A DNA stretch of 64,000 bases, taken from positions 1,142,927 through 1,206,926 of the forward strand of contig JAJCZU010000002.1 in NCBI GenBank assembly GCA_029262235.1, read 5' to 3'. Shown in pieces: positions 40,301 through 59,707 of the stretch. Both the position numbers and the translations under genes were made by a program. A model generated the notes under the pieces. The model searched no databases. It was not told the origin of the DNA and saw nothing but the letters and a program-made list of their open reading frames with translations. Each line of letters begins with the position of its first letter. The stretch's first letter is position 1. Source of the DNA: Candidatus Eiseniibacteriota bacterium. GTDB lineage: Bacteria > Orphanbacterota > Orphanbacteria > Orphanbacterales > Orphanbacteraceae.

Positions 40301-40867
40301 CGCGTCATCGATCCCGAGAAGGCCCGCTTTGATATTGCGCGTGTCCTGGCACGTTTCGAGCAGCAGATAATCCGCGCCGCCTTCGATAAGACCGATGGCC
40401 TGATCGCGGTACGACGCGCGCAGTTCCTCGAACGTGACGCCCCCCGTAACCGAAATGGCCTTCGTGGTCGGCCCCATCGATCCGCACACGAACCGCAGGC
40501 GCCCGGGCGCATCGAACTCCGCGCACGCCTCGCGCGCGATTTCCGCGGCAAGGCGATTGATTTCGATCGCGTGGTCCTGCAGATCGTATTCCGCGAGCAC
40601 GATGCTCGCCCCGCCGAACGTGTTCGTCTCGATGATGTCCGCGCCCACCGCCAGGTAGTCACGATGCAGATCGAGCACGACGTCGGGCCGCGTTCTTACG
40701 AGGTTTTCGTTACACCCTTCGAGCGCCGGACCGCCGAAATCGTCTGCAGCAAGATTCCGCGCCTGGAAGCCGGTGCCGGTGGCCCCGTCCATGACGAGAA
40801 TCCGTTCGTCGAATGCGTCGTAAAGCGCCGCCTCGCGGGCCGCGCGGTCCTGTTGTGTTTCACTCAT
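37394..40867 (-). CDS. metH: cobalamin-dependent methionine synthase
   Basis: 1157 aa; Hcy-binding and pterin-binding barrels, B12-binding DxHxxG (DVHDIGKN), C-terminal reactivation domain. Confidence 0.9.
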
Positions 40868-40869
40868 GA

Positions 40870-42708
40870 TTAAAGGATCTCATCCAGTATGCGCTGTGCC
40901 GCTTCCGTTCGCCCGAACGGCGCGGCAATTTGAACGCCTTGTGTGTTGTTCTTCATATGGCGGAATGTTTCGAGTGCGATTGCGAGCCCTTCCTCGCGCG
41001 CGTCCTCGCGTGAATCGCACTTTCTGAGGCGCTCGATCACATCCGCGGGCACCGAACATCCCGGCACTTCGTTGTTCATGAACTCCGCGTTCCGCAGAGA
41101 CTGCAGCGGCCAGAGGCCCGCGATCACGGGAACGTCGAATCGCTCCACTTTCTCGAGAAAGCGATTCAGAACATCGAGATCGAACACGGGTTGCGTAATA
41201 ATGTACTCGGCGCCGGCCTCGAGCTTCCAGTAAAGCCGCTTCAGTTCCTGGTCGAGGTTCAGCGCGCCCGGATCCGCTCCGACGCCGATGCAGAATCCTG
41301 CCGGCTCTCCGATCGGATTCGCGGCGATGTCGAGCCCGTGATTCAGGCGGTTCAAGATATTCGTAAGTCCGATCGAGTCGATATCGAACACGGCCGTTGC
41401 GTCCGGATAGTTCCCGAGCTTCGGCGGATCGCCCGTGATGGCCAGTATGTTGCGGACGCCGAGCGCCCACGCACCCAGAAGATCGCTCTGGATCCCGATC
41501 ACGTTCCTGTCGCGGCACGCGTAATGAAGCACCGCTTCGATACCGACCTCGCGTTGAATCTGGATCGCGAGGGAGAGTGCGCTCATGCGCGCCATCGCGC
41601 GCGGTCCGTCGGGAATATTGATGCAGTCGACGCCGAGCACGTGCATCCTGCGCGCGGCTTCGAGCTCCTTTTTCGCGCTCGTGCCACGGGGGGCCACGAG
41701 CTCGACGAGCGTCACGAAGCGCCCGGTCGCGAGCTTCCCGCCCAGGCGACTCTTGTCGTACAGCGCGCGGGGTTCGACCTCCGGAGGCGCTTCGACCGCT
41801 TCGATCGGAGCGCGCGCGACGACCGACATCGCCGCCTCGGCCCGAAACGTGCGCGCCATCGCTTTCAGATGAGAGGGGGAGACGCCGCAGCATCCCCCGA
41901 CAACACTGGCGCCCGCCTGCAGAAACCGCTTCGTGAAGCTGGCGAGATATTCCGGCGTGCTCAGATAGATATTGCGCCCTTCGACGTCGCGCGGCTTGCC
42001 GGCGTTCGGCATCACGGCGAGCGGCACTTCGGTATTCTCGCGCACCGTTTCGAGCCACTCCAGCATCACGTGCGGGCCGACCGAACAGTTGACGCCCACG
42101 AGATCGGCTCCCACCGAGAGAAGGTCGGTCAGCACCTGCGAGGGGGAAGCGCCCGTCAGTGAACCGGCGTCATCGGTGATCGTGAGCTCCGCCAGGATCG
42201 GAATGTCCGGCGCGATCTGACGGCAGGCGCGCACGGCTTCCGCCAGTTCCGAGTGATACGTGAACGTTTCACATACGAAGAGATCGATGCCGCCCGCAAC
42301 AAGTGCCTCCACCTGCTCCGCGAACATGTCGCGCGCTTCAGACAGCGCAAGGGGGCCGAGCGGTTCGATCTGAACACCGAGAGGGCCGACGCAGCCCGCG
42401 ACCCACACTTCGTCGCCCGCCGCCTGCTGCGCAATCTCCGCCCCGCGACGATTGATTTCGACGACTTGATCCGCAAGCCCGTGTCGCTTCAGTTTCGCGC
42501 GATTCGCGCTGAACGTGTTGGTCGTGAGCACTTCCGCGCCCGCGGCCCTGAATTCCTCGTGCAGAGAGCGCACGAGATCCGGATCGCTGAGATTCACCTG
42601 GTCGAACGACCGGTTGATGTAGACGCCGCGTTCGTAGAGGCTCGTCCCCATGCCGCCGTCGAACAGAACGGGGCCCTGGAGAAGGCGCTCTCGAAACGGG
42701 ATCTTCAT
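40870..42708 (-). CDS. bifunctional homocysteine S-methyltransferase / 5,10-methylenetetrahydrofolate reductase (YitJ-like)
   Basis: N-terminal Hcy-binding domain (VLFDGGMGTSLY) fused to a C-terminal MTHFR-like domain; start taken at MKIPFRERL (42708); the ORF-track start at 42759 is the alternative. Confidence 0.8.
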   Translation of the reverse strand: MKIPFRERLLQGPVLFDGGMGTSLYERGVYINRSFDQVNLSDPDLVRSLHEEFRAAGAEVLTTNTFSANRAKLKRHGLADQVVEINRRGAEIAQQAAGDEVWVAGCVGPLGVQIEPLGPLALSEARDMFAEQVEALVAGGIDLFVCETFTYHSELAEAVRACRQIAPDIPILAELTITDDAGSLTGASPSQVLTDLLSVGADLVGVNCSVGPHVMLEWLETVRENTEVPLAVMPNAGKPRDVEGRNIYLSTPEYLASFTKRFLQAGASVVGGCCGVSPSHLKAMARTFRAEAAMSVVARAPIEAVEAPPEVEPRALYDKSRLGGKLATGRFVTLVELVAPRGTSAKKELEAARRMHVLGVDCINIPDGPRAMARMSALSLAIQIQREVGIEAVLHYACRDRNVIGIQSDLLGAWALGVRNILAITGDPPKLGNYPDATAVFDIDSIGLTNILNRLNHGLDIAANPIGEPAGFCIGVGADPGALNLDQELKRLYWKLEAGAEYIITQPVFDLDVLNRFLEKVERFDVPVIAGLWPLQSLRNAEFMNNEVPGCSVPADVIERLRKCDSREDAREEGLAIALETFRHMKNNTQGVQIAAPFGRTEAAQRILDEIL

Positions 42709-42737
42709 AGCGGGGCCTTCCGTAAGGGGAGAAGGAG

Positions 42738-43259
42738 CTAGCGGTTCGTAATTCCCCACGCATCGAAGCCGACGGCGGGATCGTCATGTGGAATACGGAA
42801 TTCGTCGGACGGGTCGTAGGTCCTGTTCGTGTAGTAGACCATCACCAGATCGTCCCCCGGCATGACCTCGTATCCGTGCGCCACCCCCGCGGGGATGCGA
42901 ACGGCCCGCGGGTAGAGTTCGCCCGCGAAAATCGAGTGCGCCACGCCGTAAGTGGGGGAGTCGACCCGGAAGTCGACAAGCGCAATCCGCGCCTTGCCCA
43001 TGACGGGGAGGAAGATGTCGTCCTGCTTCTTATGATAGTGGAAAGCTTTGATGACGCCAGCCTGGGACCGGGTGGTGGAAGTCTGGCGAAACGTAAAACC
43101 GGCGGCGATGGGGTCGTCATGACGAAAGACCTCGGCGAAGTGGCCGCGATCGTCCGGAAACAGACGAAGAGACCGGATCACGACTCCGTCGATCAGGCCG
43201 TCAGGCGCGTCGCCCTGAACAATGGTGTGAGTGCGAATGTTTGTCGGCTCCAGACGCAT
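42738..43259 (-). CDS. rfbC: dTDP-4-dehydrorhamnose 3,5-epimerase
   Basis: Cupin-type RmlC sequence; ATG at 43259 is preceded by GGAGGAG, so it is preferred over the ORF-track start at 43337. Confidence 0.8.
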   Translation of the reverse strand: MRLEPTNIRTHTIVQGDAPDGLIDGVVIRSLRLFPDDRGHFAEVFRHDDPIAAGFTFRQTSTTRSQAGVIKAFHYHKKQDDIFLPVMGKARIALVDFRVDSPTYGVAHSIFAGELYPRAVRIPAGVAHGYEVMPGDDLVMVYYTNRTYDPSDEFRIPHDDPAVGFDAWGITNR

Positions 43260-43404
43260 GCGTACGTACTCCTCCACGGGCCGGGCGGGCTTTGTGCGTG
43301 CGGAAAACAGAATCTGCGTGTACGATGCCGCAGGCATCCGGCAAGGTCAAGGGGAAAGGGGCTTGCGGCGGCCCTCCGACAAACCCCGTAAGTGCATGGA
43401 AGAC

Positions 43405-43576: not shown

Positions 43577-44218
43577 ATGACCGAGGTTCTACTCTCCCTT
43601 CCCATGGAGAAGCGGAGTACGTATGCATTCGTCAAGCGCGCGGTCGACATTCTGGTCGCCGGCGTTTTCCTTGTTGCATTTTTCCCTCTTTTTCTCATGA
43701 TAGCGTTGCTGATTCGTATCGACTCACCAGGGCCGGTCATCTTTCGGCAGGTCCGCGTGGGAAAAGATGGAAAAAGATTTAACTTCTATAAATTCCGGTC
43801 GATGGTTAAAGATGCGGAGCAAATGAAGCAAAGTCTGCTGGATCAGAACGAAGCGGAACAACCGTTGTTCAAGATTCGTGAGGATCCGCGGATCACACGA
43901 CTGGGTAAGTTCTTGCGGCTCAGCAGCTTGGACGAAGTACCCCAGCTGTTCAACGTTCTGCGCGGCGACCTGACGCTCGTGGGGCCCAGGCCGCATCTTC
44001 CGGAAGAAGTCCGTGAGTACACGGAGGCGCACCGGATCAGGCTGAGTGTGGCGCCGGGAATCACCTGTCTCTGGCAGGCGAATCACCGGTTGTCGACGAA
44101 ATTCGTGGACTGGATCGAGTCGGACATCCGTTACGTGAACGAGCGATCGTTCGCACTCGATCTGAAGATATTGTGGGACACGCTGATCACGGTCCTAAGC
44201 AGGAGAAACGCGGCTTGA
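43577..44218 (+). CDS. short-form sugar phosphotransferase (PglC-like bacterial sugar transferase)
   Basis: About 213 aa with a single N-terminal TM and the C-terminal PRP...DxxY...W catalytic region of the bacterial sugar transferase family; ATG at 43577 preceded by GAGGGA. Confidence 0.8.
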   Translation: MTEVLLSLPMEKRSTYAFVKRAVDILVAGVFLVAFFPLFLMIALLIRIDSPGPVIFRQVRVGKDGKRFNFYKFRSMVKDAEQMKQSLLDQNEAEQPLFKIREDPRITRLGKFLRLSSLDEVPQLFNVLRGDLTLVGPRPHLPEEVREYTEAHRIRLSVAPGITCLWQANHRLSTKFVDWIESDIRYVNERSFALDLKILWDTLITVLSRRNAA

Positions 44219-45078
44219 AACGGATCGCTCTTCTCATGGCCGGCTCACTGGCCGTCTGGATACTCTTCGCGGGTTGCGGTTCGCGCCCCGGTTTCGAGGC
44301 GGACTTCGCGGAAGGCCCTCGTGTGGACGCCCCGGAAAGCGGGATGACCGACGAGGAACTGGACAAGATCCGGCGTGAGGAAGCGGCGCAGCGAAAAACC
44401 GAGTTGCGCGAGATGATCGCGGCCGATCGCCTGCAGGCGGTCGACTCCGAACGCGAGGGCGTGGACATTTACGCAGGGGTGGGACCGTATCGTCTCGGGC
44501 CCGGCGATGTGTTTCTGCTCCGGTTCGCGCCGCAGAACGAAATGAACGCGTCGTTCACGGTGCAGCCCGACGGCATGGTCAACTTCGACCTGATCGGGGA
44601 GCTCCCCGTCGCAGGGATGACGCCGTCCGATCTCGGGAAAACTCTCGAAGAACTGTACGCGGTCTATCTGCGCGATCCGATCATCAACGTCACGATGCGG
44701 GAGACGACCTCCCAGCGGCTTTATGTGTTCGGCGAGGTCACGAGACCGGGCATGTTCGAGCTGAAGAATCCGACCACGCTCACGCACGCGCTCAGCATGG
44801 CGGGCGGGTGGAAGGATTCGGCACGCATGGAAAACGTCATGGTGATCCGCGTCGGCGAGGATGACGTGCCGTTCGCGTTTCAGATCGACATCAAGGAGAT
44901 GCTGGAAGAGCGCGTCGTGCACAGAGACGTCACGCTTCAGAATATGGATATCGTATACGTACCGGAAGGCAGGATCTCGGCGACGGGAGACTGGATCGCG
45001 CGCTTCTTCCGGATCGTGCAGCCGCCGATCGACGCGGCATGGCGCGCTGTCATCGTGAAGAACGGGTTCACTCCGTAG
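44215..45078 (+). CDS. polysaccharide export outer-membrane lipoprotein (Wza/OPX-like)
   Basis: Lipoprotein signal (LAVWILFAGC) then polysaccharide-export-type sequence; TTG start after AGGAGA, overlapping the upstream stop. Confidence 0.7.
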   Translation: MKRIALLMAGSLAVWILFAGCGSRPGFEADFAEGPRVDAPESGMTDEELDKIRREEAAQRKTELREMIAADRLQAVDSEREGVDIYAGVGPYRLGPGDVFLLRFAPQNEMNASFTVQPDGMVNFDLIGELPVAGMTPSDLGKTLEELYAVYLRDPIINVTMRETTSQRLYVFGEVTRPGMFELKNPTTLTHALSMAGGWKDSARMENVMVIRVGEDDVPFAFQIDIKEMLEERVVHRDVTLQNMDIVYVPEGRISATGDWIARFFRIVQPPIDAAWRAVIVKNGFTP

Positions 45079-45126: not shown

Positions 45127-46554
45127 ATGAGCGATCAGGATACGAAAACAGTGGAAAACAACCACCGTCGCGAGGGGGCTACCTCGGAGTCCATCCGCGA
45201 GGGGGGGCAGCTCACCGGGCGCGATATCTTCAAAGTCCTCTTTCGCCGCAAATGGGTCATCCTGCTGCTGTTCCTGACCACACTCGTCTTCGTTCTCTGG
45301 CAGGCGAGTCAGATTCCGACGGAATACCGCGCCACGGCGGAAGTATTGATCAATCGCGGACAGCGCAAGAGCGCGCTCGACAGAAACGTTTCGCTCCTGA
45401 CATGGGACGAAACGGTGGCGACCGAGCTGCAGATCGCCGAGAGTCGTCCGGTCATCAAGAGCGCGCAGGCCGCGCTCAATGCCGAGGCGGAAGCGAACGG
45501 TACCAAACCGATCGAGATCATCGCGAATAAAGTCCGGTCGCGACTCATGGAAGAGTCGAACGTGGTCGGAGTCATGTATACGTCACTCCGCGAGGAAGAC
45601 GCCCGGCCTGTGGCCAACGCGCTCGCGACCGCCTACATCGAGTACCACAAACAGCTCTTCGCGCTTCCCGACGCCACCTCGTTCTTTGTCGAACGCGTGG
45701 CGTCCGCGGAAGAAAACCTGACCGACCTCATGTCGCGTCGCCAGGCGATCAAAGAGGCGGGCACGATCACGCGCATGGCGACGCAGCAGGATCTGCTGCT
45801 CCAGGAAATGCGCACGATCCGCGAATCACTCATGAAGGACGAGAAGGAATACGCGGCGATGCAGACCGAGCTGGAACAGGCGCGACGGCTGTACCGGGGC
45901 GGAGTCGACATGCCGTTCGGCACCACGCGCGACGAGGGGAACGCCGGTCTCGCGCGCATCATGCTGCGTCTCAAGGAAGATCTGCTCAAGCTGAAGCAGA
46001 ACCGCGACCAGCTTCTTACGAAGTACACTCCGCAGCACCCGCAGGTGCTTGCGCTCGACGACCAGATTGAGAAAGTGCAGGAGAGTCTGACGGATGAGAC
46101 GGGCCAGGTTCTGCAGGTCAAGGAATCCGAGATCGCGATCAAGCGCTCCGAGATCCAGGATCTGCGGGAAAGCCTGAACAACCTGAACGCGAAAATGCGG
46201 GAGATGCCGCGGATCGAACGGGAACTGGACGACCTCGACAGGTCCATCGACCTCGCTAGCAAAGCGTACCAGGAACTGCTCGACAACCAGGTGCGCATTC
46301 AGGTGGCCGAAGTAAGCTCACGCGACTTTACGCTGACGCTGCTTTCGGATGCCGGCGCTCCCATCGCAAGCAACCCGCGCGACCCCGTGAGGCTCGCGCT
46401 CGTTCCCGCGTTCAGTCTGTTGGTCGGGGTCAGCCTGGCCTTCTTTCTCGAAACAATGGACCACTCCTTCAAGAGCCGTGAGGACGTGGAACGATATCTC
46501 GATCTTTCGGTGCTGGCTTCCGTGCCCGACCGGAAGAAAGCGTTGACCCGCTGA
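45127..46554 (+). CDS. polysaccharide co-polymerase / chain-length determinant (Wzz/GumC-like)
   Basis: 475 aa; N-terminal TM, long coiled-coil periplasmic region, C-terminal TM. Confidence 0.7.
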   Translation: MSDQDTKTVENNHRREGATSESIREGGQLTGRDIFKVLFRRKWVILLLFLTTLVFVLWQASQIPTEYRATAEVLINRGQRKSALDRNVSLLTWDETVATELQIAESRPVIKSAQAALNAEAEANGTKPIEIIANKVRSRLMEESNVVGVMYTSLREEDARPVANALATAYIEYHKQLFALPDATSFFVERVASAEENLTDLMSRRQAIKEAGTITRMATQQDLLLQEMRTIRESLMKDEKEYAAMQTELEQARRLYRGGVDMPFGTTRDEGNAGLARIMLRLKEDLLKLKQNRDQLLTKYTPQHPQVLALDDQIEKVQESLTDETGQVLQVKESEIAIKRSEIQDLRESLNNLNAKMREMPRIERELDDLDRSIDLASKAYQELLDNQVRIQVAEVSSRDFTLTLLSDAGAPIASNPRDPVRLALVPAFSLLVGVSLAFFLETMDHSFKSREDVERYLDLSVLASVPDRKKALTR

Positions 46555-46566
46555 CGGACGGAATCG

Positions 46567-47343
46567 ATGAGCAAGATTTATGAAGCGCTGAATCGCGCGC
46601 GAGACGACGACGACGATCCGAAGAAGCCGACGCCGCCGACCGAAAAGCCGGTGGGCACCGGTTCGGGCTCGGGTACGCGCGGTGGTTTCGATCCTCGCAT
46701 ACTGAGCGAGGAACTGCAGAAGGTCGCCGTCGACTACGAAGCGCTGCACAGCTCGATGGAGAAGACCCTTTCGACCGTCGCCGGCCATGCGATCATGATG
46801 GTCTCCTCGGTCGAGGAAGAGGGCACGACCACGGTCGCCGCGGAATACGCGAGCACGCTCGGACGCGGCATTCCGCGCGGCACGCTGCTGATCGACGCGA
46901 ACTTCAGGAACCCTACGCTTCACGACGTGTTCGGCGTGCCGAACGATACCGGTTTCGCCGACGTCCTCCAGGAGCGTGTCACCCTGAAGCAGGCCGTGCA
47001 GACGCTTGCCGAAAACGAACTGTATCTGCTGACGGCGGGCCTTGTCGATTTCTCGCCGAGCGCGCGCATTTCGGGTTCTGTCGTCTCCCGGTTTCTCGCC
47101 GAGGCGAAAGCCCAGTACGGCGCCGTCATCCTGGACGGACCTCCCGTCATTCCGTATCCCGAGGCGGTCCACATCGCGAGCGCGGCCGACGGCGTTGTTT
47201 TCATCATCGAGTCGGAACGGACGAAGCGCGAGATCGTCGCGCGGGCGAAGGATGCGCTCGACGCGGTCGATGCCAACATTCTCGGAGTCGTGCTGAATCG
47301 CCGCCGCTATGTCATACCGGAATTCCTGTATCGCCAACTCTAA
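46567..47343 (+). CDS. BY-kinase-like P-loop protein with degenerate Walker A
   Basis: 258 aa; CpsD/CapB-like layout but the Walker A position reads VSSVEEEGTTT with no GK[ST]; Walker B-like VILDGPP is present. Confidence 0.6.
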   Translation: MSKIYEALNRARDDDDDPKKPTPPTEKPVGTGSGSGTRGGFDPRILSEELQKVAVDYEALHSSMEKTLSTVAGHAIMMVSSVEEEGTTTVAAEYASTLGRGIPRGTLLIDANFRNPTLHDVFGVPNDTGFADVLQERVTLKQAVQTLAENELYLLTAGLVDFSPSARISGSVVSRFLAEAKAQYGAVILDGPPVIPYPEAVHIASAADGVVFIIESERTKREIVARAKDALDAVDANILGVVLNRRRYVIPEFLYRQL

Positions 47344-48598
47344 GCCGGACGCCCGCTTGCACTCGACCGATCCGTACACCGCACCTTTCGCGCCCGATCC
47401 GGACGTGGATCAATTCTACCGGGAGAAAGTGCGCGCGGTCGTCGACATCGTGCTCGGCGCATGGAACGGCGAAGCCCCCACTGTGGTGCTGAGCGGAAGT
47501 CTCGCACTCGGCGATGGGCGCGCTACACGCACTCCCGAAGGCCCCGGGCCCGCAAGCGACGTCGACCTCTATCTCGTAACAGAAGAAGCCGCGCACGCCG
47601 CCGCACTCACCGACCTTCCCCGCATCCACGGCGCGCTCCGACGTTCCGACCGCACGTCTGATCTCACGGTCGATCTCGGCGTCACGACTGCCGCGCGCCT
47701 CGCGGCCGCGCCCGTTTCGATCGCAAACCGAACGCTGGCCGAGCACGGACGTGTTCTGACCGGTGATCGGGAGGTGCTCGATGCGATGCGGTCCGTACGG
47801 GGAAGACCGATCCCGCCGGCGGACGGACTGCTGCTGCTGCAGAACCGCACGGTGGAAGCGCTCGTGCCTGTCGCTCTCTTCGGGGACTCATCGATGCACG
47901 ACGCTTTCTGGTATCTTCACGCGAAGACGCTGCGCGATATCGGACTCTCGGCGATTGTCGCCGCCGGGCGTTTCGCTCCGCGACCCGGCGACCGTGCGGA
48001 ACTCGTGCGGGCGACATGGGAAGAGAGTGAGCTCGGCAAGGTCGTTCCCGGTTTTCCCGCACGCTATGAAGAGTCCTCGGGCTCGTCTTCGCGCGGAAGC
48101 GCGCCTTCGCGCGGAAGCGGAAGCAGCGTGCGCGGCGAAACGGCGCTTCGGCGCGCATGGGAAGATCTCGGCACCACTCTGTTCGCCGTGGCGCGATGGG
48201 AGCACCGTACGATCGACCCGCATGCGAGCGACGATCCGAACAGCTGGGTGCGTGCCGGGAGCGGACCGCTTCGGAGGCGGGTCAAATCGTGGCTCCCGTT
48301 TGCCACAGGAGACCCCGGCGCTTTTGCGAAAGCGCTGACCCGGGGATTTCCGGGAACACCGATGCAGGGCGCCTACGTGGCGGCTTCGTGTCTCATGGCA
48401 TCCGCGGGGACCGCATGGGGAGGCGGCGCGCCCGATCAAGGCACGATGATTGCAGGAGCCCGGGCCATCTGCCCGTTCACCGTCAAGGATCGCCGCCCGG
48501 ACGCCGCATGGTGGGAACTCCGGAACGCGATCTGCGAGTACTGGAATGAAACGGTCCTCGGCGGAAGCCGCACGATCGAGAAGGGAGGTCCGCGATGA
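47309..48598 (+). CDS. hypothetical protein, possible nucleotidyltransferase-fold domain
   Basis: 429 aa; weak GS...DxD signature (LSGSLALGDG...SDVDLYLV); internal Ser/Gly-rich linker; start uncertain because it overlaps the upstream gene. Confidence 0.4.
   Translation: MSYRNSCIANSKPDARLHSTDPYTAPFAPDPDVDQFYREKVRAVVDIVLGAWNGEAPTVVLSGSLALGDGRATRTPEGPGPASDVDLYLVTEEAAHAAALTDLPRIHGALRRSDRTSDLTVDLGVTTAARLAAAPVSIANRTLAEHGRVLTGDREVLDAMRSVRGRPIPPADGLLLLQNRTVEALVPVALFGDSSMHDAFWYLHAKTLRDIGLSAIVAAGRFAPRPGDRAELVRATWEESELGKVVPGFPARYEESSGSSSRGSAPSRGSGSSVRGETALRRAWEDLGTTLFAVARWEHRTIDPHASDDPNSWVRAGSGPLRRRVKSWLPFATGDPGAFAKALTRGFPGTPMQGAYVAASCLMASAGTAWGGGAPDQGTMIAGARAICPFTVKDRRPDAAWWELRNAICEYWNETVLGGSRTIEKGGPR
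48087..48119. repeat. imperfect 18-bp tandem direct repeat (cttcgcgcggaagcg core x2) inside the coding sequence
   Basis: Read directly; it encodes the SSRGSAPSRGSGS low-complexity linker. Confidence 0.6.
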
Positions 48599-49749
48599 AG
48601 CGTGCCGTGCTGGCCGTTCTGATCGACGCCTTCGGCTATGACCTGCTCGATCGTCATCCGTTCATGCCGGAACTTGCAGAGCGCAGGCCGCTTGCAACGG
48701 TGGCCGGTTTCAGTTCATCCGCGATCCCGTCGCTCCTGACCGGCAAATGGCCGAACGAGCACGGGCGCTGGTTCCTGTACGGAAAAGCGGGCGAAACGAC
48801 GCCGTTCAGCAACGCGCGTCTCTACGCATGGGCGGAGAATCTGCCGAAGATCGGCATCCGCGCGCGCCAGCGTTATGAACGCGAGTTCGCCCGGACTTCC
48901 GGCATCAACGAGTATTACCATCTCTATAATATACCCTTGAAATATCTCCCCTCGTTCGACCTTCCCGGCAAGCGATCGATCTACGAACCGGGCGCGATCG
49001 AAGGCGTACCGAATCTTTTCGACAAGCTCGTCGAACACGAGATCCCCTACGCGTCCTGGAACTGGAGCACGCCCGAAGAGAAAAACTTCACGGAACTGCA
49101 CGCGACGATCCGCGAGGCGAAGCTTCCGTTCTATTTCCTCTACACGGCCGTGCTCGACGGCGTGATGCACGCGACGGGAACGGATTCGCCGGAAACCCGG
49201 GCGGTCATCGAGAGCAATCAGAAGTCGATTCGCGAGGCGGTGCGCATCGCGGAGGAATGCTACGACGAAGTCTCCCTCTACATTTTCTCGGATCACGGCA
49301 TGGTGAACGTCGAGACCGTGATCGATCTGATGAATGACGTGCGGGCGCTCCCTTTCGTCGAAGGGAAGGACTATCTGCCGTTCTACGACTCGACATACGC
49401 GCGCTTCTGGTTCCGGAACGAGCGCGCGGAGAAAGCGATCCGCGCACTGCTCGACTCCGCGGCGGGGGGCAGGCTGCTGTCACGCGGGGAACTCGAGCGC
49501 CTGCATGTATGGTTCCCGGACCGCGAATACGGCGACGCGATCTTTCTGACGGACGCCGGAACGGTCATCGCGCCGTCGTTCATGGGGAACGAACCGCCCC
49601 GCGCGATGCACGGATACCATCCTGAAGACGCCGGTTCGAACGGGATGCTGGTCGGGAGCCGGTCCATCCCCGCGGGAGTCACCTCGATCATGGATATGGC
49701 GCTCTTTCTCGAGCAGGAAGCGCGGCGCGCCCACGGGACCGGGTCGTGA
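48595..49749 (+). CDS. alkaline-phosphatase-superfamily enzyme (type I phosphodiesterase / nucleotide pyrophosphatase-like)
   Basis: Metal-ligand style motifs LIDAFGYD, SSSAIPSLLTG, FSDHGM, HGYH; 384 aa; ATGA overlap with the upstream gene. Confidence 0.7.
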   Translation: MKRAVLAVLIDAFGYDLLDRHPFMPELAERRPLATVAGFSSSAIPSLLTGKWPNEHGRWFLYGKAGETTPFSNARLYAWAENLPKIGIRARQRYEREFARTSGINEYYHLYNIPLKYLPSFDLPGKRSIYEPGAIEGVPNLFDKLVEHEIPYASWNWSTPEEKNFTELHATIREAKLPFYFLYTAVLDGVMHATGTDSPETRAVIESNQKSIREAVRIAEECYDEVSLYIFSDHGMVNVETVIDLMNDVRALPFVEGKDYLPFYDSTYARFWFRNERAEKAIRALLDSAAGGRLLSRGELERLHVWFPDREYGDAIFLTDAGTVIAPSFMGNEPPRAMHGYHPEDAGSNGMLVGSRSIPAGVTSIMDMALFLEQEARRAHGTGS

Positions 49750-51227
49750 GCACACTCGCGCGCGCCTCGCGGGCAGCCCCTTTCAGCCTCATCGCAAAAG
49801 CCGTCCGTTTCATCCTTTCGTTCGCGACCAGTATTCTGGTCGTGCGCATGCTTCCCGAGAACGAATACGGTGTACTTACGATCGTCCGCACGATCGCGTC
49901 GCTCGCGGGCGCGCTGATCGGCTTCGGAATGGGAAACGCAATCCTGCGCTTCCTGCCCGAACGCGAAGCGCAGGGAGAGGGGACCCGCGCGCTCCTGAAC
50001 TGGGCCGCGCTTCTGCCCATGGCCGCCTGGGCGGTCGTCACCGGCTGCGCGTTTCTGCTTCGCGACTCGATCGACGCCCTCTATGGAACGCCGATCGGAA
50101 CCCCGCTGCTCGCCGGCATCGCCCTGCTTTCCGGGAATCTCCTCTACACGATCCTGATGAACACATGGACGGCAACGTTTCGAACGCGGGAACTCGCGCT
50201 CGTGCAGTCCGTGCTCAGCTTCGCGATCCTGGCCGCTTCGTATGGCGCGATCCGCATGGGCTGGGGCGTGATCGGCGTCCTCGCCGCGAGCTCGCTCCCG
50301 TATCTGCTGGCCGCGATCGTGCGCGGCCCGGCCGTATGGCTGTCGCTCAAGCACGGGGCGGCGAGGCTGCCGGCCGGGCCGCTGCTTGCATACGGCATCC
50401 CCGTGGCGTTCGTCGACATTCTGAACCAGATCACGTGGCGCCAGTCCGAAACGATTCTGCTCGGGCATTACACGTCGGCCGCCGCGGCCGGCACGTTCGA
50501 TATCGCGTACAAGCTCCCGCAGCTGCTCGTCGAATTCGTGCCCGACACGATCTGGCCGCTCGTTCTGGCGGCATTCGCCGAGGTGTACACGCGGGACCGC
50601 TCCCGTCTCGACGAGATGATCCGGCGGTACTACCAGGTGCTTTTTCTGCTCGTGCTCCCCGTCAGCGTGTTCGGTGTGCTCTACGGGGACCTTCTGATTC
50701 AGACGGCCTACGGCGCGGAACGGGCCGAAGCCGGGCAGTACGCGCGGATCTTCTTTTTCATCTTTCATCTCACGTTCTGGGGCACGCCGCTCTCGATGGC
50801 CCTCTATCTTCTGAAGAAGACGAACGTGAATCTCTGGCTCGCGCTGGTGGCCGCCACGGTGAACGTCGGCCTCGACTTCGTGATGATTCCGAAGTACGGG
50901 CTGCGCGGGGCGGTGCCTCCGGTCGCGATCGCGGTCGCGCTGACGGCGATTCTCCGCGGAATCACGCTCCGGCGCATGCACGGGACGCTTCCCATACCAT
51001 GGCGATTTCTCGGCCGGGCCTATCTGGCAACGGCCCCGCTCGCGATTTTTTACCCGATTCGGGGCATGGGATCGCCTCAGACGGCTCTTTGTGCGATCAG
51101 TGCTTTGTCTCTTTTGCTGTTGCCCTTTACAATAAGGTTCGCGCGACTGCTCGGCGACGAGGAGCGCGAGTATCTCAGGCAGTCGGGCATTCCCGGACGC
51201 GAAATTCTCCTCCGGTGGTTCCGTTGA
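49746..51227 (+). CDS. polysaccharide flippase (Wzx, MOP superfamily)
   Basis: 493 aa polytopic membrane protein with Wzx-like N-terminus; GTG start overlapping the upstream stop. Confidence 0.75.
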   Translation: MSTLARASRAAPFSLIAKAVRFILSFATSILVVRMLPENEYGVLTIVRTIASLAGALIGFGMGNAILRFLPEREAQGEGTRALLNWAALLPMAAWAVVTGCAFLLRDSIDALYGTPIGTPLLAGIALLSGNLLYTILMNTWTATFRTRELALVQSVLSFAILAASYGAIRMGWGVIGVLAASSLPYLLAAIVRGPAVWLSLKHGAARLPAGPLLAYGIPVAFVDILNQITWRQSETILLGHYTSAAAAGTFDIAYKLPQLLVEFVPDTIWPLVLAAFAEVYTRDRSRLDEMIRRYYQVLFLLVLPVSVFGVLYGDLLIQTAYGAERAEAGQYARIFFFIFHLTFWGTPLSMALYLLKKTNVNLWLALVAATVNVGLDFVMIPKYGLRGAVPPVAIAVALTAILRGITLRRMHGTLPIPWRFLGRAYLATAPLAIFYPIRGMGSPQTALCAISALSLLLLPFTIRFARLLGDEEREYLRQSGIPGREILLRWFR

Positions 51228-51263: not shown

Positions 51264-51938
51264 ATGTATCGAGAGCGAACGGTATCGGCAGTGATTCCCT
51301 GCTACAACGAGGAGGAGGGGATCGCGCACGTCATCGAGTCGATGCCCGACTTCGTGGACGAAGTCGTCGTCGTCGACAACAATTCGACGGACCGCACAGC
51401 GGAAATTGCGACGAAGCTCGGCGCGCGGGTGATTCACGAAAAGCGCAAGGGTTACGGCGCGGCCTACAAAGCGGGGATTCCCGCGGCGAAGTCGGACATC
51501 ATCGTGACGATGGACGGCGACGGGACGTACCCGGTCGAGGAGATCAAGGATCTGATCGACTTCATGTTCGAGAAAGATCTCGACTTCGTTTCGGGTTGCC
51601 GGTTCCCGCTCAAGAACGCCGAAGCGATGCACTCCCTGAACAAGCTCGGCAACACGATCCTGACGATCGAAATGCTGATTCTGTATGCGCGCGGCATTCG
51701 CGATTCGCAGTCCGGCATGTGGTGCTTCAAGTCCGCAGTGTATCCGAAGTTCAAGATGACGTCGGACGGTATGCCGTTCTCCGAGGAGATCAAGATCGAA
51801 GCGATTCTCGCGAAGGACGTCAAGTTCGACGAGTATCACATTACGTATCATCAGCGAATCGGCGAAGTGAAGCTCAACATGTGGGCCGACGGCTTCGAGA
51901 ATCTCTTTTTCCTCGCAAAGAAGCGATTCTTCCGGTAG
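51264..51938 (+). CDS. family 2 glycosyltransferase (DPM1/GtrB-like polyprenyl-phosphate glycosyltransferase)
   Basis: VIPCYNEE start, DxD-type MDGDG motif; 224 aa with no obvious TM segment. Confidence 0.8.
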   Translation: MYRERTVSAVIPCYNEEEGIAHVIESMPDFVDEVVVVDNNSTDRTAEIATKLGARVIHEKRKGYGAAYKAGIPAAKSDIIVTMDGDGTYPVEEIKDLIDFMFEKDLDFVSGCRFPLKNAEAMHSLNKLGNTILTIEMLILYARGIRDSQSGMWCFKSAVYPKFKMTSDGMPFSEEIKIEAILAKDVKFDEYHITYHQRIGEVKLNMWADGFENLFFLAKKRFFR

Positions 51939-51983: not shown

Positions 51984-54452
51984 ATGTTGTCCGTGCGCAT
52001 CGCCCGTACTCTCGTTCTCGTCACGCTGTTCGCGATCGCGCGCAGCCCTTTCTTTACGAGCCTCGCTCTTCCCCCGTTCGTTACGATGTCCGCCGCGCTT
52101 CTCGCCATCGTGCTCCCGGGCATCTGGCTCGCGCAGGCGGTGCGCGGAATCGACGATTCGCCCGCCGCCGCAATCTGCTGGGGATTCGCCTTCTCTCTCG
52201 CGCTCGTGTCAGCCGGTTCGATCGCGTTTCATCTTACGGGAGCGTTCGGCCTCGGCGCGCTTCTCGCCCTTGTCATGGTATGCGGGTACGCGATCGCTCT
52301 GCTCGTGCCGCCCCGGGCAGAATCAACGCCGCTTCTTGCCCGCGCCGAAACCTGGCTGCTCGTCGCAACCGTGGCGATCACGGCACTCGTGTCCTCACCG
52401 CGAACCGGCTACCTGACCGACGCGTACGATCATCTCGGCACGGTGCGCTGGATGACGATCGAGGATCGCGCCTATCCGGTCGAGTCGTTTCACGCGGACC
52501 GCGCGGCGGCGGGCACGCTCGATCCACGCAAGGGGACGTATCACACGACTTTCGCGCTCGCGAGCGACCTGACGGGCGTCGATCCGGTCGACGGCTACCG
52601 GACGTTCTGGGCGTTCACGCTGCTGCTCGCATTTGCTTCCGTGCTCACCGCGGCGCGCGCCTTTCTGACCGGAGAACGCGCCGCCTGGATCGCGTTCATT
52701 CTGTTCGTGGTGCTGCATCGCGGCGGCCCCGCGGGAGAGTGGTTCTCGACGGCGGGCTACCCGGGCTCGGCCGGGCTCTGGCTCTACCTGCTTTTCGTTT
52801 CGGTGATCGTACGCGGGCGCATGGCGCGCATGGCGCGCATGCCGCGCATGGCGTTGATCGCGCTCGGATTCGCGACGCTCGGCGTACATCTTTTCTACGG
52901 ACTGCTGGCCGGCCTCGCATTCCTGTATCTGTTCGCGGGGCTCTTGATCTTCCGCCGCGCGGAGGGCGCAGGCCTGGTGCTGCGCGGGGCGATCGCGTTC
53001 GGCGCGGGCGCATTGCCCGTCGCGATCTTTCGCTATTTCGCCACGTACGATCCCGCCAACCCGATCCATCTGCACCGTCAGGCCGTGATCGAACTGACCG
53101 ACCGGCTGGCGGTACTCGACGCGACCCCCGTTCTGCAGGCGTTCGGCATCGGCGGTCTGATCGCGCTGTTCTTTCTGCCGTTTCTCGACTGGCGCGGCAG
53201 AGACGAACAGGGGGGGCGGGGCGACCTGTTTCTGGGAACCTCGCTTGCCGGCACGTTCCTGATCGTATGGAATCCGATCGTGTTTCCGGCTCTCGAACCA
53301 CACCTCGGTTATCTCATGCGCCGGATTCCGTACGCGGTTCCGTGGGCCTTCGTCTTCGCGGCTGTCATGACCCGGACCATGGGGCCCGTCGGAACACCGG
53401 GCAGGACATCGATCTCCCGGGGCCGGCGCTCGATCGCGTGGGCGGCTCTGGCCGTCGTGGTCATTACCGCAGGCTGGGACGCGACACGCAGGCGTCCGCC
53501 CCGCGCAAAACCCGCGGCGGGCGTCGAAGAGATCGCGCAGCAGGTCGTGGCGGACGCGGCGAAACTGCTCCCGCCCGGCACGACGGTCCTGACCGATCCC
53601 GTAACCGGATACGTGCTCTTCGGGCGCACCTCGCTCCGGCCGGTTGCCATTCTCGACCAGCACTCGTCGCCGAACGATCCGCTGGCCGCACGCCGCCTCT
53701 CCGAAAGCCAGCGCGCGCTTCACCCCGCAACGAGCGAAGCCGAACGCCTGGACGTCATGAACCAGTACGAAACCCGTCACATTCTGCTCGTGACGGGGTA
53801 TCCCCGCGATTTTCAGACATACAACGCGTTCTATTCGCCCGGAATGGCGTCCACGATGGACGCGGTTCTCACCGGCCGGACGACGTTCGACACGATCATG
53901 CGCACCGAACAGGCCGTGCTCTACCGTCTGGACGGCCGTGAATCGGTCGTGCCGCCGGGTGACCGTCGCCCCTGGGCCACAGCGGGCTCGCTCACGCGCC
54001 CCGGGGGCCCCGCGGACCTCCCGGGGGGCATCAGGCTCACGGGAGCGCGTCTCGGGACGTCTGAGGGGCGTCCGGGAGATCTCGTGTGGCTCGAAAGTGA
54101 GTGGACGCTCCCTCATGAGGATGCCGGGGCCGTGCCGATGCTTCTTTATATAACGGGAGTCCGGCTGGAGGAGGGCTCCGATCCTGTGAGAACGCGTGCG
54201 GAGAGGCCCTGGAAGATCTTCTCCCTCGGCGGCCGTGAATTTCCGTATCTTCTCTGGAAGAAGAAGGAGCGGATCGCGTATGACGCCCCGCTTCGGATTC
54301 CGGAGCGGATCGCGCCTGGCCGGTACGAAGTGCAGGTCACGACGGATCGGCATCCGTTTTTCGCCGTGCGCAGACTTGAGAGGAACGGCCTTCGCTGGAG
54401 CGCCGCCCGCACGGGTTGGACGGCCGTTGATACAGTCGAGGTGATGCCTTGA
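51984..54452 (+). CDS. large polytopic membrane protein, unknown family (GT-C-like candidate), paralogue 1
   Basis: 822 aa; multiple N-terminal TM helices plus a C-terminal soluble domain; shares sequence blocks with the 55944..58451 product. Confidence 0.6.
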   Translation: MLSVRIARTLVLVTLFAIARSPFFTSLALPPFVTMSAALLAIVLPGIWLAQAVRGIDDSPAAAICWGFAFSLALVSAGSIAFHLTGAFGLGALLALVMVCGYAIALLVPPRAESTPLLARAETWLLVATVAITALVSSPRTGYLTDAYDHLGTVRWMTIEDRAYPVESFHADRAAAGTLDPRKGTYHTTFALASDLTGVDPVDGYRTFWAFTLLLAFASVLTAARAFLTGERAAWIAFILFVVLHRGGPAGEWFSTAGYPGSAGLWLYLLFVSVIVRGRMARMARMPRMALIALGFATLGVHLFYGLLAGLAFLYLFAGLLIFRRAEGAGLVLRGAIAFGAGALPVAIFRYFATYDPANPIHLHRQAVIELTDRLAVLDATPVLQAFGIGGLIALFFLPFLDWRGRDEQGGRGDLFLGTSLAGTFLIVWNPIVFPALEPHLGYLMRRIPYAVPWAFVFAAVMTRTMGPVGTPGRTSISRGRRSIAWAALAVVVITAGWDATRRRPPRAKPAAGVEEIAQQVVADAAKLLPPGTTVLTDPVTGYVLFGRTSLRPVAILDQHSSPNDPLAARRLSESQRALHPATSEAERLDVMNQYETRHILLVTGYPRDFQTYNAFYSPGMASTMDAVLTGRTTFDTIMRTEQAVLYRLDGRESVVPPGDRRPWATAGSLTRPGGPADLPGGIRLTGARLGTSEGRPGDLVWLESEWTLPHEDAGAVPMLLYITGVRLEEGSDPVRTRAERPWKIFSLGGREFPYLLWKKKERIAYDAPLRIPERIAPGRYEVQVTTDRHPFFAVRRLERNGLRWSAARTGWTAVDTVEVMP
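52817..52852. repeat. tandem repeat, 4 copies of a 9-bp unit gcgcatggc (third copy gcgcatgcc)
   Basis: Read directly; in frame, encoding RMARMARMPRMA within paralogue 1. Confidence 0.8.
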
Positions 54453-59676: not shown

Positions 59677-59707
59677 CACGCCCGGCCTGATCCCTTTCGC
59701 GGAGACC

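What the first reader, a model, noticed from the sequence alone, without database searches (positions are those of the whole stretch)
47309..49749. Nucleotidyltransferase-like hypothetical protein and AlkP-superfamily enzyme inside the polysaccharide locus
Between the kinase-like gene and Wzx lie a 429-aa protein with a weak nucleotidyltransferase-fold signature (GS...DVD) plus a Ser/Gly-rich linker, and a 384-aa alkaline-phosphatase-superfamily enzyme with metal-ligand motifs. Neither is a standard Wzx/Wzy pathway component. Together they could add or remove a nucleotide-derived or phosphodiester substituent on the glycan or lipid carrier. The first protein has no confident family assignment.
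Basis: inference. Interest (0 to 1): 0.6.

Follow-up and report, generated by a model that had tools for sequence, protein, structure and literature searches.

The report
Conserved nucleotidyltransferase–phosphodiesterase pair in polysaccharide loci
Two adjacent, translationally coupled genes in a bacterial polysaccharide locus encode an unannotated nucleotidyltransferase-fold enzyme and a cytoplasmic phosphodiesterase that almost always occur together across many phyla and are sometimes fused to glycosyltransferases, which points to an uncharacterised two-enzyme step in sugar-polymer assembly.

Summary
Both ORFs are real genes at the stated coordinates. ORF1's true start is probably TTG 47357, giving 413 aa.

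**ORF2.** It is a PF01663 (NPP-type) alkaline-phosphatase-superfamily enzyme. All six metal ligands and a Ser nucleophile are invariant. It has no signal peptide or TM segment, so it is cytoplasmic.

**The pair.** The two genes are linked almost obligately:
- 24/24 ORF1-anchored loci carry an ORF2 homolog.
- 35/39 full-flank ORF2-anchored loci carry an ORF1 homolog.
- The linkage spans Eisenbacteria, Verrucomicrobiota, Acidobacteriota-like soil contigs, Cloacimonadota, Planctomycetota, Latescibacteria and some Proteobacteria.

The ORF1 domain is recurrently fused in-frame to GT2 or GT4 glycosyltransferases (at least 85 clusters), which ties it to glycan building.

**Function.** Best reading (inferred, about 0.4): ORF1 puts a nucleotide-derived phosphoryl group on a sugar hydroxyl of a lipid-linked intermediate, and ORF2 trims or removes that phosphodiester. 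Regulatory and signalling alternatives remain open.

**Verdict.** The function is still untested.

The parts
47309..48598 (+). ORF1: unannotated nucleotidyltransferase-fold protein. The maximal ORF is 429 aa; the probable true start is TTG 47357, giving 413 aa.
   Evidence: start; family of 901 representatives; AF2 pLDDT 92.9; fold matches.
47399..47761 (+). ORF1 Pol-beta-type NTase core (residues 15-135 of the 413-aa form). It contains G47-S48 (47495..47500) and D68-V-D70 (47558..47566).
47774..48082 (+). ORF1 middle helical domain (KNTase_C/HEPN-like). It carries the family-invariant D156, N163-R164, E167, Y186, K190, D194 and R213.
48083..48124 (+). Ser/Gly-rich disordered linker, specific to the window's close clade. 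It replaces the family's conserved T-x-x-K-L motif (K244 is 93% conserved elsewhere).
   Evidence: pLDDT below 50 only here; column counts; alignment.
48125..48553 (+). ORF1 C-terminal all-helical domain (conserved W312, P335, P373). No solved structural counterpart was found.
48595..49749 (+). ORF2: cytoplasmic PF01663 (NPP-type) alkaline-phosphatase-superfamily phosphodiesterase. Metal ligands are D11, D188, H192, D233, H234 and H339; the nucleophile is S40 (48712..48714).
   Evidence: No TM segment or signal peptide.
48583..48598 (+). GGGAGG Shine-Dalgarno (48583..48588) and the ATGA stop/start overlap between ORF1 and ORF2 (48595..48598).
49746..49749 (+). GTGA stop/start overlap between ORF2 and Wzx.
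46567..47343 (+). Upstream neighbour: BY-kinase-like P-loop protein that lacks the Walker-A lysine (SSVEEEGTTTV) and has a conserved tail, RRYVIPEFLYRQL.
49746..51227 (+). Downstream neighbour: Wzx-type flippase, co-translated with the pair.

Best explanation
ORF1 and ORF2 form a conserved two-enzyme cytoplasmic module that acts during assembly of a glycan on its lipid carrier.

Shown:
- ORF1 is a Pol-beta-fold nucleotidyltransferase of the ANT/KNTase/MNT/GlnE/DrrA kind with an intact metal-binding site.
- ORF2 is a bimetallo NPP-type phosphodiesterase with a Ser nucleophile.
- Both are soluble and cytoplasmic.
- They are translationally coupled to each other and to Wzx.
- They co-occur almost obligately across phyla.
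- The ORF1 domain is often fused to a GT2 or GT4 glycosyltransferase.

Inferred mechanism: ORF1 uses an NTP (or an NDP-linked donor) to put a nucleotidyl or phosphoryl-linked group on a hydroxyl of the sugar that the partner glycosyltransferase has just added, in the way ANT enzymes O-adenylylate aminoglycoside sugars. ORF2 then cleaves the resulting phosphodiester. It could trim off the nucleoside to leave a phosphate or phosphodiester substituent or bridge, or it could remove the group again (write/erase), before Wzx flips the unit.
For: Fold:
- AF2 on a 123-sequence alignment gives pLDDT 92.9 and pTM 0.91.
- Foldseek returns HalB, AadA, LinB and ANT(4').
- The best PDB profile hit aligns on GS...DxD of a minimal NTase.

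Active sites:
- In ORF1, G47, D68 and D/E70 are invariant.
- In ORF2, PF01663 scores 50.4 bits. D11/S40/D188/H192/D233/H234/H339 are invariant in 57 sequences. The nearest solved relatives are ENPP6, ENPP7, ENPP5 and Xanthomonas NPP.

Compartment: neither protein has a hydrophobic segment.

Coupling: ATGA and GTGA overlaps.

Pairing:
- Same gene order in L001-L007 and L089.
- 63/88 ORF2-anchored loci carry an ORF1 homolog, and 35/39 with full flanks do.
- 24/24 ORF1-anchored metagenome loci with at least 2.6 kb upstream carry an ORF2 homolog.

Link to glycosyl transfer:
- In-frame GT2-ORF1 fusions (L037, L068) and a GT4-ORF1 fusion (L081) lie next to ORF2 homologs.
- At least 85 database clusters of 680-770 aa cover 96-100% of the fusion query.
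- AlkP-GT4-ORF1 order in soil contigs.
- AlkP followed by a GT2-ORF1 fusion in L141 and L142.

Context: always glycan genes, namely PGT, GT4s, Wzy_C, Wzx, PCP and OPX.
Against: - No substrate, product or phenotype is known for any member of either family.
- The third catalytic carboxylate on the later beta-strand is acidic in only about half of the ORF1 family.
- The window's own ORF1 clade has lost the otherwise 93%-conserved K244 and has D instead of E at position 53, so its activity could be altered.
- NPP enzymes normally release the 5'-nucleotide. That would simply undo a nucleotidylylation rather than leave a phosphate.
- In the window and related Eisenbacteria/Latescibacteria loci the pair sits in the conserved PCP/kinase-like/Wzx core, not beside a cytoplasmic GT, and the fused GT2 has no ortholog in the window.
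- Partner-switching and response-regulator genes flank the pair in Verrucomicrobiota, which is equally compatible with a regulatory role.
Confidence: 0.4

Rival explanations
1. Regulatory nucleotidylylation cycle on the assembly machinery. ORF1 AMPylates or UMPylates a protein hydroxyl, as its structural relatives GlnE, DrrA and MNT do on Tyr. A candidate target is one of the two conserved tail tyrosines of the adjacent lysine-less BY-kinase-like protein. ORF2 removes the nucleotide. This would replace the usual BY-kinase/phosphatase cycle that controls polymerisation and export.
For: - The upstream kinase-like protein and all 17 detectable homologs next to the pair lack the Walker-A Lys (GEG[T/A][T/S]T). 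Nearly all end in RRYxIPxFLYRxL.
- The order PCP / kinase-like / ORF1 / ORF2 / Wzx is kept in Eisenbacteria, Latescibacteria and L007.
- NPP enzymes (snake-venom phosphodiesterase) classically de-adenylylate Tyr-AMP proteins (established knowledge).
Against: - The fused Wzz/P-loop proteins of the Shewanella (HEGKST) and Cloacimonadales (ETGKS) loci keep the lysine.
- A kinase-like gene was detected in only 19/88 and 10/51 loci, against 63/88 and 33/51 for the partner enzyme.
- The pair also occurs in compact operons with no PCP or kinase-like gene.
- The recurrent fusion is to glycosyltransferases, not to PCP or kinase domains.
Confidence: 0.15
2. Local nucleotide signalling. ORF1 synthesises a linear or cyclic (oligo)nucleotide signal and ORF2 degrades it, as the soluble PF01663 enzyme AtaC degrades c-di-AMP. 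The signal gates the glycosyltransferase or export step.
For: [quoted passage not shown] ORF2 has the same layout with Ser in place of Thr.
- STAS, RsbW/SpoIIE-like and response-regulator genes lie next to the pair in L088, L141 and L142.
Against: - No PADLOC model matches.
- No recognisable receptor domain was seen.
- Fusing a signal synthase to a GT catalytic domain would be unusual.
- ORF2 gave no NCBIfam hit at all.
Confidence: 0.12
3. The two proteins act on the carrier or precursor pool rather than decorating the glycan. For example, ORF2 could hydrolyse a nucleotide by-product, an NDP-sugar or a stalled Und-PP-linked intermediate, while ORF1 nucleotidylates a lipid phosphate (as the NTase-fold CDP-DAG synthase Tam41 does) or serves mainly as a scaffold. 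Either would support priming by the phosphoglycosyl transferase.
For: - After ORF1, the commonest neighbour of ORF2 is the priming Bac_transf enzyme (52/88), followed by an NTP_transferase/LbH/Bac_transf-like fusion (39 loci).
- A bona fide uridine kinase (NF004018, 186.9 bits against a 180 cut-off) lies in 22 Verrucomicrobiota-type loci.
Against: - The uridine-kinase linkage may be phylum-level synteny only.
- The invariant catalytic residues of ORF1 argue against a pure scaffold.
- No lipid-binding or membrane segment is present.
Confidence: 0.13

Closest known systems
ANT(3'')(9)/AadA and related aminoglycoside/lincosamide O-nucleotidyltransferases (AAD(9), KNTase/ANT(4'), LinB)
   Different: Sequence identity is 8-13% and there is no Pfam membership. 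ORF1 has an extra helical domain of about 150 aa at the C-terminus. It sits in glycan-assembly loci, not resistance contexts. It is paired with a phosphodiesterase and fused to GT2 or GT4 in many lineages.
Protein AMPylators/UMPylators of the same fold (GlnE, DrrA/SidM N-terminal domain, MNT of MNT-HEPN toxin-antitoxin systems)
   Different: No HEPN Rx4-6H motif. Not in a two-gene toxin-antitoxin module. No evidence of a protein target.
NPP/ENPP phosphodiesterases (ENPP6, ENPP7, ENPP5, Xanthomonas NPP)
   Same: PF01663. Same six metal ligands and the nucleophile-TG...P-x-x-HG motif. Profile E-values 2e-10 to 7e-9.
   Different: ORF2 is cytoplasmic with no signal peptide. Its nucleophile is Ser, not Thr. 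The NPP Asn three residues after the nucleophile is Ala. Only the C-terminal half aligns significantly.
AtaC, the soluble PF01663 c-di-AMP phosphodiesterase of Streptomyces and S. pneumoniae (PMC7132281)
   Same: Soluble single-domain cytoplasmic PF01663 enzyme of about 390-400 aa with a 3 Asp/3 His/1 hydroxyl-nucleophile site acting on a nucleotide phosphodiester.
   Different: Direct sequence relatedness was not tested here. ORF2 is embedded in glycan loci and paired with an NTase, and AtaC is not.
LicD/FKRP-fukutin phosphotransferases (NTase-fold enzymes that move P-choline or ribitol-P from CDP donors onto glycans)
   Same: They offer a functional analogy: an NTase-fold enzyme in a glycan pathway that creates a phosphodiester substituent (established knowledge).

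Membership tests
Pol-beta superfamily nucleotidyltransferases (ANT/KNTase/MNT clade) | alpha/beta NTase core fold | tested here: met
Pol-beta superfamily nucleotidyltransferases (ANT/KNTase/MNT clade) | hG[GS] loop and [DE]h[DE]h metal-binding carboxylates | tested here: met
   G47 123/123, S48 117/123, D68 123/123, D/E70 123/123. The window has GS...DVD.
Pol-beta superfamily nucleotidyltransferases (ANT/KNTase/MNT clade) | Third catalytic carboxylate or general base on a later strand or helical domain | tested here: inconclusive
   Position 106 on strand 105-111 is D/E in only 61/123 members (D in the window). Invariant D156, E167 and D194 in the helical domain could substitute, but no residue-level structural superposition was available.
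Pol-beta superfamily nucleotidyltransferases (ANT/KNTase/MNT clade) | Sequence membership in a curated NTase family (e.g. PF01909 NTP_transf_2) | tested here: not met
   The window protein has no Pfam or NCBIfam hit at E<=0.1. Only 2/14 diverse members touch PF01909, at E=0.07. The PDB profile hit has E=0.037.
Pol-beta superfamily nucleotidyltransferases (ANT/KNTase/MNT clade) | Nucleotidyl-transfer activity | not testable with these tools
   Needs biochemistry.
Alkaline-phosphatase superfamily, NPP type (PF01663) | Pfam PF01663 above the gathering score | tested here: met
   50.4 bits against 23, E 3e-13, covering residues 5-309.
Alkaline-phosphatase superfamily, NPP type (PF01663) | Two-metal site (3 Asp + 3 His) and a hydroxyl nucleophile | tested here: met
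   D11, D188, H192, D233, H234, H339 and S40 are invariant in 57 sequences.
Alkaline-phosphatase superfamily, NPP type (PF01663) | Canonical NPP details: Thr nucleophile, Asn at +3, secreted or ecto location | tested here: not met
   The nucleophile is Ser, +3 is Ala (motif GFSSSAIPSLLTG), and there is no signal peptide or TM segment. This resembles the cytoplasmic AtaC/PhnA branch.
Known anti-phage defence NTases (Hailong HalB, CD-NTases/CBASS) | Match to defence-system models and a defence-island context | tested here: not met
   No PADLOC hit for ORF1, ORF2, the GT2-ORF1 fusion or the neighbours. The context is always glycan assembly.
LicD/FKRP phosphotransferases | LicD (PF04991) sequence or closest-fold match | tested here: not met
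BY-kinase / phosphatase regulatory pair of Wzx/Wzy systems | Walker A GK[ST] in the kinase, and a Wzb/CpsB-type phosphatase | tested here: not met
   The adjacent kinase-like protein lacks the Walker-A Lys. ORF2 is an AlkP-superfamily enzyme, not an LMW-PTP or PHP phosphatase.

The most novel reading that the evidence does not exclude
The pair is a previously unrecognised 'nucleotidylylate-then-cleave' chemistry in glycan assembly. An ANT-like enzyme activates a sugar hydroxyl (or a tail tyrosine of the lysine-less Wzc-like protein) with an NMP. An NPP-type enzyme with a Ser nucleophile then resolves that diester. It could leave a phosphate, forge a sugar-phosphate-sugar or sugar-phosphate-lipid bridge through a covalent enzyme intermediate, or erase a regulatory mark. 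Either outcome would be a new biosynthetic or regulatory logic, shared by the polysaccharide loci of many little-studied phyla.
Probability: 0.15. Interest if true: 0.8.

Novelty: new variant of a known kind. Interest (0 to 1): 0.55.

Why it matters
Polysaccharide loci of Verrucomicrobiota, Acidobacteriota, Planctomycetota, Cloacimonadota, Eisenbacteria and relatives are largely annotated by analogy to E. coli and Gram-positive models. This pair is a widespread component of those loci with no counterpart in the textbook Wzx/Wzy pathway: about 900 ORF1 family representatives at 50% identity, and more than 569 species genomes for ORF2.

Public annotation calls ORF1 relatives 'hypothetical protein', and the GT-fused forms merely 'rhamnosyltransferase' or 'GT2', so half of those proteins goes unrecognised.

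Defining the reaction would do two things. It would add either a new kind of glycan modification (phosphate, phosphodiester or nucleotide-derived) or a new control step. It would also give a family definition (NTase core, invariant N-R-x-x-E and Y-x3-K-x3-D helices) for annotating thousands of genes.

Tried and rejected
- **AF2 with the 4-sequence alignment** gave an unusable model (pLDDT 42). It was replaced by a 123-sequence alignment built from the exhaustive search.
- **The word-seeded database search** suggested ORF1 was nearly an orphan, with 3 homologs. The exhaustive HMM search rejected this.
- **The search for related loci with the 123-sequence ORF1 alignment** failed because no block was conserved enough. 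I used the ORF2 alignment on genomes and a tighter ORF1 subset on metagenomes.
- **The AFDB50 fold library** was unavailable.
- **Sequence-only PDB searches for ORF1** were not significant. A single-sequence PDB search for ORF2 found nothing, and only the profile did.
- **'The lysine-less kinase always accompanies the pair'** was rejected as a universal rule.
- **'The GT2 fused to ORF1 elsewhere equals the window's small GT2'** was rejected, since the two show no similarity.
- **A defence-system reading**, prompted by the HalB hit, was rejected: no PADLOC match and a glycan context.
- **De novo single-linkage clustering of neighbourhood ORFs** was noisy because of antisense ORFs in high-GC DNA. 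It was used only to pick recurrent families for Pfam annotation.
- **Literature searches** for the pair in polysaccharide loci returned nothing relevant.
- **ORF2** could not be structure-predicted because both jobs went to ORF1.
Full report
**Observation**

They lie inside a co-directional polysaccharide locus:
- small phosphoglycosyl transferase, 43577..44218 (PF02397)
- Poly_export/OPX, 44173..45078
- Wzz-like co-polymerase, 45127..46554
- BY-kinase-like P-loop protein, 46567..47343
- ORF1 and ORF2
- Wzx, 49746..51227
- a small DPM/AglJ-like GT2, 51264..51938
- an 822-aa polytopic protein
- Wzy_C, 54449..55930
- an 835-aa polytopic protein
- DegT aminotransferase, a second large PGT, a GFO/IDH/MocA oxidoreductase and a GT4

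.

ORF1 and ORF2 overlap by ATGA, with a GGGAGG Shine-Dalgarno 6 nt upstream. ORF2 and Wzx overlap by GTGA. The three genes are therefore translationally coupled.

Close homologs of ORF1 all start at the residue aligned to codon 17. In the window that codon is a TTG at 47357, immediately after the kinase-like gene's stop. ORF1 is thus most likely 413 aa, and residue numbers below use that form.

**ORF1: what it is**

ORF1 has no Pfam, NCBIfam or PADLOC match. The word-seeded search of 5.8 billion clusters found only three relatives. An exhaustive HMM search with their alignment found 901 representatives at E<=1e-3 and 302 at E<=1e-10, nearly all about 400 aa. It is a large, unannotated family, although JGI labels at least one member 'predicted nucleotidyltransferase'.

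A first AlphaFold run on four sequences failed (pLDDT 42). A run on a 123-sequence alignment gave pLDDT 92.9 and pTM 0.91, with only the Ser/Gly-rich stretch (residues 243-256) disordered.

Fold searches gave these results:
- Foldseek agrees, giving HalB, AadA, LinB and ANT(4').

The catalytic signature is intact and essentially invariant: G47 in 123/123 members, S48 in 117/123, D68 in 123/123 and D/E70 in 123/123. It sits within an MNT/ANT-like 'L-[TS]-G-S-x-A-R-G-E ... [GS]-D-x-[DE]' motif. Further family invariants lie in the helical domain: D156, N163-R164, E167, Y186, K190, D194 and R213.

Caveats:
- The usual third carboxylate position (106) is acidic in only half of the family.
- By sequence alone the family does not reach any curated NTase model. 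Only 2/14 members touch PF01909, at E 0.07, and the PDB profile hit has E 0.037.

**ORF2: what it is**

ORF2 matches PF01663 (type I phosphodiesterase/nucleotide pyrophosphatase) at 50.4 bits against a cut-off of 23.

In a 57-sequence alignment the complete alkaline-phosphatase-superfamily bimetallo site and nucleophile are invariant: D11, S40, D188, H192, D233, H234 and H339. The NPP-like motif G-x-S-S-x-A-I-P-S-x-L-T-G-x-x-P-x-E-H-G is also present.

The nearest solved relatives by profile are ENPP6 (2e-10), ENPP7, Xanthomonas NPP and ENPP5. A single-sequence search finds none.

Neither ORF1 nor ORF2 has a hydrophobic segment or signal peptide. The N-terminus of ORF2 is the first beta-strand, which carries D11. 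Both are therefore cytoplasmic, unlike classical ecto-NPPs. They resemble the soluble PF01663 enzyme AtaC, which hydrolyses c-di-AMP with a 3 Asp/3 His/1 Thr site (PMC7132281).

**The two genes are a pair**

All three close ORF1 homologs lie in the same gene order. Every ORF2 relative I looked up had an unannotated protein of about 400-437 aa directly upstream. These proved to be ORF1 homologs:
- 33-34% identity by BLASTP, E 4e-50 and 9e-43.
- hhalign 93.6% over the full length for the distant L007 protein.
- HMM E 2e-51 for the Latescibacteria protein.

.

Systematically, a genome scan with the ORF2 alignment found at least 569 species genomes. Of 88 loci, 63 carry an ORF1-family gene within 8 kb. 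Among loci with full flanks the count is 35/39.

In the reverse direction, metagenome loci were anchored on ORF1. All 24 with at least 2.6 kb of upstream sequence carry an ORF2 homolog. It is either directly adjacent or separated by a single GT4 gene.

Of all the window-locus genes, ORF1 is the most tightly linked to ORF2 (63/88). The priming Bac_transf enzyme follows (52), then GT2 (32), Wzz-like (31) and the exporter (28).

Lineages include Eisenbacteria and 'Gemmatimonadetes'-labelled MAGs (the window's relatives), Latescibacteria, Verrucomicrobiota, Cloacimonadota, Sumerlaeota, Planctomycetota, Acidobacteria, Chloroflexota, Methylomirabilota, Shewanella benthica KT99, Ca. Uabimicrobium and Campylobacterota.

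**Link to glycosyl transfer**

Several ORF1-family reading frames are unusually long. Three are in-frame fusions, each next to an ORF2 homolog: GT2-ORF1 in L037 (Verrucomicrobiia) and L068 (a Deltaproteobacteria MAG), and GT4-ORF1 in L081. The fused domains keep the NTase signature (LGGGYGRG[E/Q]GG...ND-x-[D/E]).

A database search with the L037 fusion returned at least 85 independent clusters of 680-770 aa covering 96-100% of the query. Sources annotate them only as 'rhamnosyltransferase' or 'GT2'. The search also returned stand-alone proteins of about 400 aa that are 55-67% identical to the C-terminal half.

Independently called genomes show AlkP immediately followed by GT2-ORF1.

In Shewanella, Cloacimonadales, Uabimicrobium and Latescibacteria the pair is surrounded by GT4s, Wzy_C, Wzx, PCP and OPX.

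In L141 and L142 it sits instead in a compact operon: an outer-membrane beta-barrel-like protein, GT4, a uridine-kinase-like kinase, STAS, an RsbW/SpoIIE-like protein, a response regulator, AlkP, GT2-ORF1 and a PPTase. No Wzx, Wzy or PCP gene is nearby. The pair therefore belongs to glycan building in general rather than to the Wzx/Wzy export machine specifically.

**Mechanism**

What is shown:
- ORF1 is a catalytically plausible NTase of the kind that O-nucleotidylates hydroxyl groups.
- ORF2 is a catalytically complete NPP-type phosphodiesterase.
- Both are cytoplasmic.
- They are co-translated, and with Wzx.
- They are inherited together.
- ORF1 is recurrently welded to glycosyltransferases.

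The most economical inference (confidence about 0.4) is sequential action on one substrate during repeat-unit assembly. ORF1 transfers an NMP, or a phosphoryl-linked group from an NDP donor, to a sugar hydroxyl of the lipid-linked intermediate. ORF2 then cleaves the diester. It could trim the nucleoside to leave a phosphate or phosphodiester, or it could erase the mark.

Points against this reading:
- Canonical NPP chemistry would merely reverse a nucleotidylylation.
- The third carboxylate is variable, and the window clade has lost K244.
- In the window the pair sits in the PCP/kinase-like/Wzx core rather than next to a cytoplasmic GT.
- The GT2 that is fused elsewhere has no ortholog here.

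**Rivals**

(i) *A regulatory nucleotidylylation cycle.* The adjacent kinase-like protein and all 17 detectable homologs lack the Walker-A lysine. Nearly all share a two-tyrosine tail, RRYxIPxFLYRxL. ORF1's structural relatives include the Tyr-AMPylators GlnE, DrrA and MNT. However, the Shewanella and Cloacimonadales P-loop domains keep the lysine. Kinase-like genes are far less constant than the pair. The fusions are to GTs, not to PCP or kinase domains.

(ii) *Local nucleotide signalling.* This rests on HalB- or CD-NTase-like synthesis, AtaC-like degradation, and the partner-switching and response-regulator neighbours. It is weakened by the much stronger similarity to two-domain O-nucleotidyltransferases and by the absence of a receptor.

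(iii) *Carrier or precursor housekeeping linked to the priming transferase.* This draws on the Bac_transf linkage and a bona fide uridine kinase in 22 Verrucomicrobiota-type loci.

None of these is excluded.

**Comparison with known systems, and novelty**

At fold level each protein belongs to a well-known superfamily. ORF1 works like ANT/KNTase/MNT-type NTases but fails sequence membership in any curated family and has an extra C-terminal helical domain. ORF2 is a PF01663 member of the cytoplasmic (AtaC/PhnA-like) kind, with Ser as nucleophile.

I found no description of an NTase/NPP pair in polysaccharide loci in the searchable literature, and no defence-system match.

I therefore rate it a new variant of a known kind: two known enzyme superfamilies combined into an undescribed, widely conserved module of glycan assembly. 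Its functional suggestion is strengthened but unproven.

Noticed in passing
window 46567..47343 (+); homologs in L001-L011, L026, L040, L041, L044, L064, L079: The BY-kinase-like protein upstream of ORF1 lacks the Walker-A lysine (SSVEEEGTTTV against the canonical GEGKST) and has DAN instead of DxD in Walker A'. All 17 detectable homologs next to the pair lack the lysine too, and nearly all end in the conserved tail RRYxIPxFLYRxL. It may be a pseudokinase or an ATP-independent partner of the co-polymerase. The Shewanella and Cloacimonadales fused versions keep GK[ST].
   Followed up: partly
window 51264..51938, 51984..54452, 55944..58451 (+): A small DPM/AglJ/PpgS-like GT2 (polyprenyl-phosphate sugar synthase type) is followed by two proteins of 822 and 835 aa. 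Neither has a Pfam hit. Each has about 10-14 N-terminal hydrophobic segments and a large soluble C-terminal part, and they flank Wzy_C. They look like GT-C-type periplasmic glycosyltransferases that use a lipid-P-sugar donor. They are conserved in the 10 Eisenbacteria-type loci, and Latescibacteria has a GT2 + EamA-like + 910-aa equivalent (L089).
   Followed up: partly
window 43577..44218 and 59648..61195 (+): The locus encodes two priming phosphoglycosyl transferases: a minimal 213-aa Bac_transf and a 515-aa WbaP/PglC-like form with a CoA_binding_3 domain. This suggests two lipid-linked products, or two separate pathways merged in one locus.
   Followed up: no
L030:5191-5910, L141:4451-5134, L142:4452-5123 (22 Verrucomicrobiota-type loci): A bona fide uridine kinase (NF004018, 186.9 bits against a 180 cut-off) lies inside the glycan operon next to the PGT, AlkP and GT genes. 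It could salvage a nucleoside released by the pathway, or it could be simple phylum-level synteny.
   Followed up: partly
L141:5118-7578, L142:5151-7626, L088:9297-10001: A partner-switching module (STAS protein, HATPase_c_2+SpoIIE protein, and a response regulator or STAS-receiver fusion) sits immediately upstream of the AlkP gene in Verrucomicrobiota. This hints at post-translational control of the operon's products.
   Followed up: no
L038:5410-6810, L087:4053-5408, L088:7969-9300 (39 loci): A recurrent protein of about 450 aa combines an N-terminal sugar-1-phosphate nucleotidylyltransferase-like region, a left-handed beta-helix (hexapeptide) region and the C-terminal part of a Bac_transf domain. 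It often lies directly upstream of the AlkP or ORF1 gene. It was not characterised here.
   Followed up: no
window 37394..42759 (-) and 42738..43337 (-): MetH (1157 aa), an MTHFR/S-methyltransferase fusion (629 aa) and an RmlC-like cupin lie divergently upstream of the polysaccharide locus. The same arrangement is kept in L001 and L003-L006, so the locus boundary and neighbourhood are stable in this lineage.
   Followed up: no
L078:9130-10017: In Ca. Uabimicrobium an APH-family (choline/aminoglycoside kinase-like) protein directly follows the AlkP gene. It is another phosphotransfer enzyme associated with the pair.
   Followed up: no
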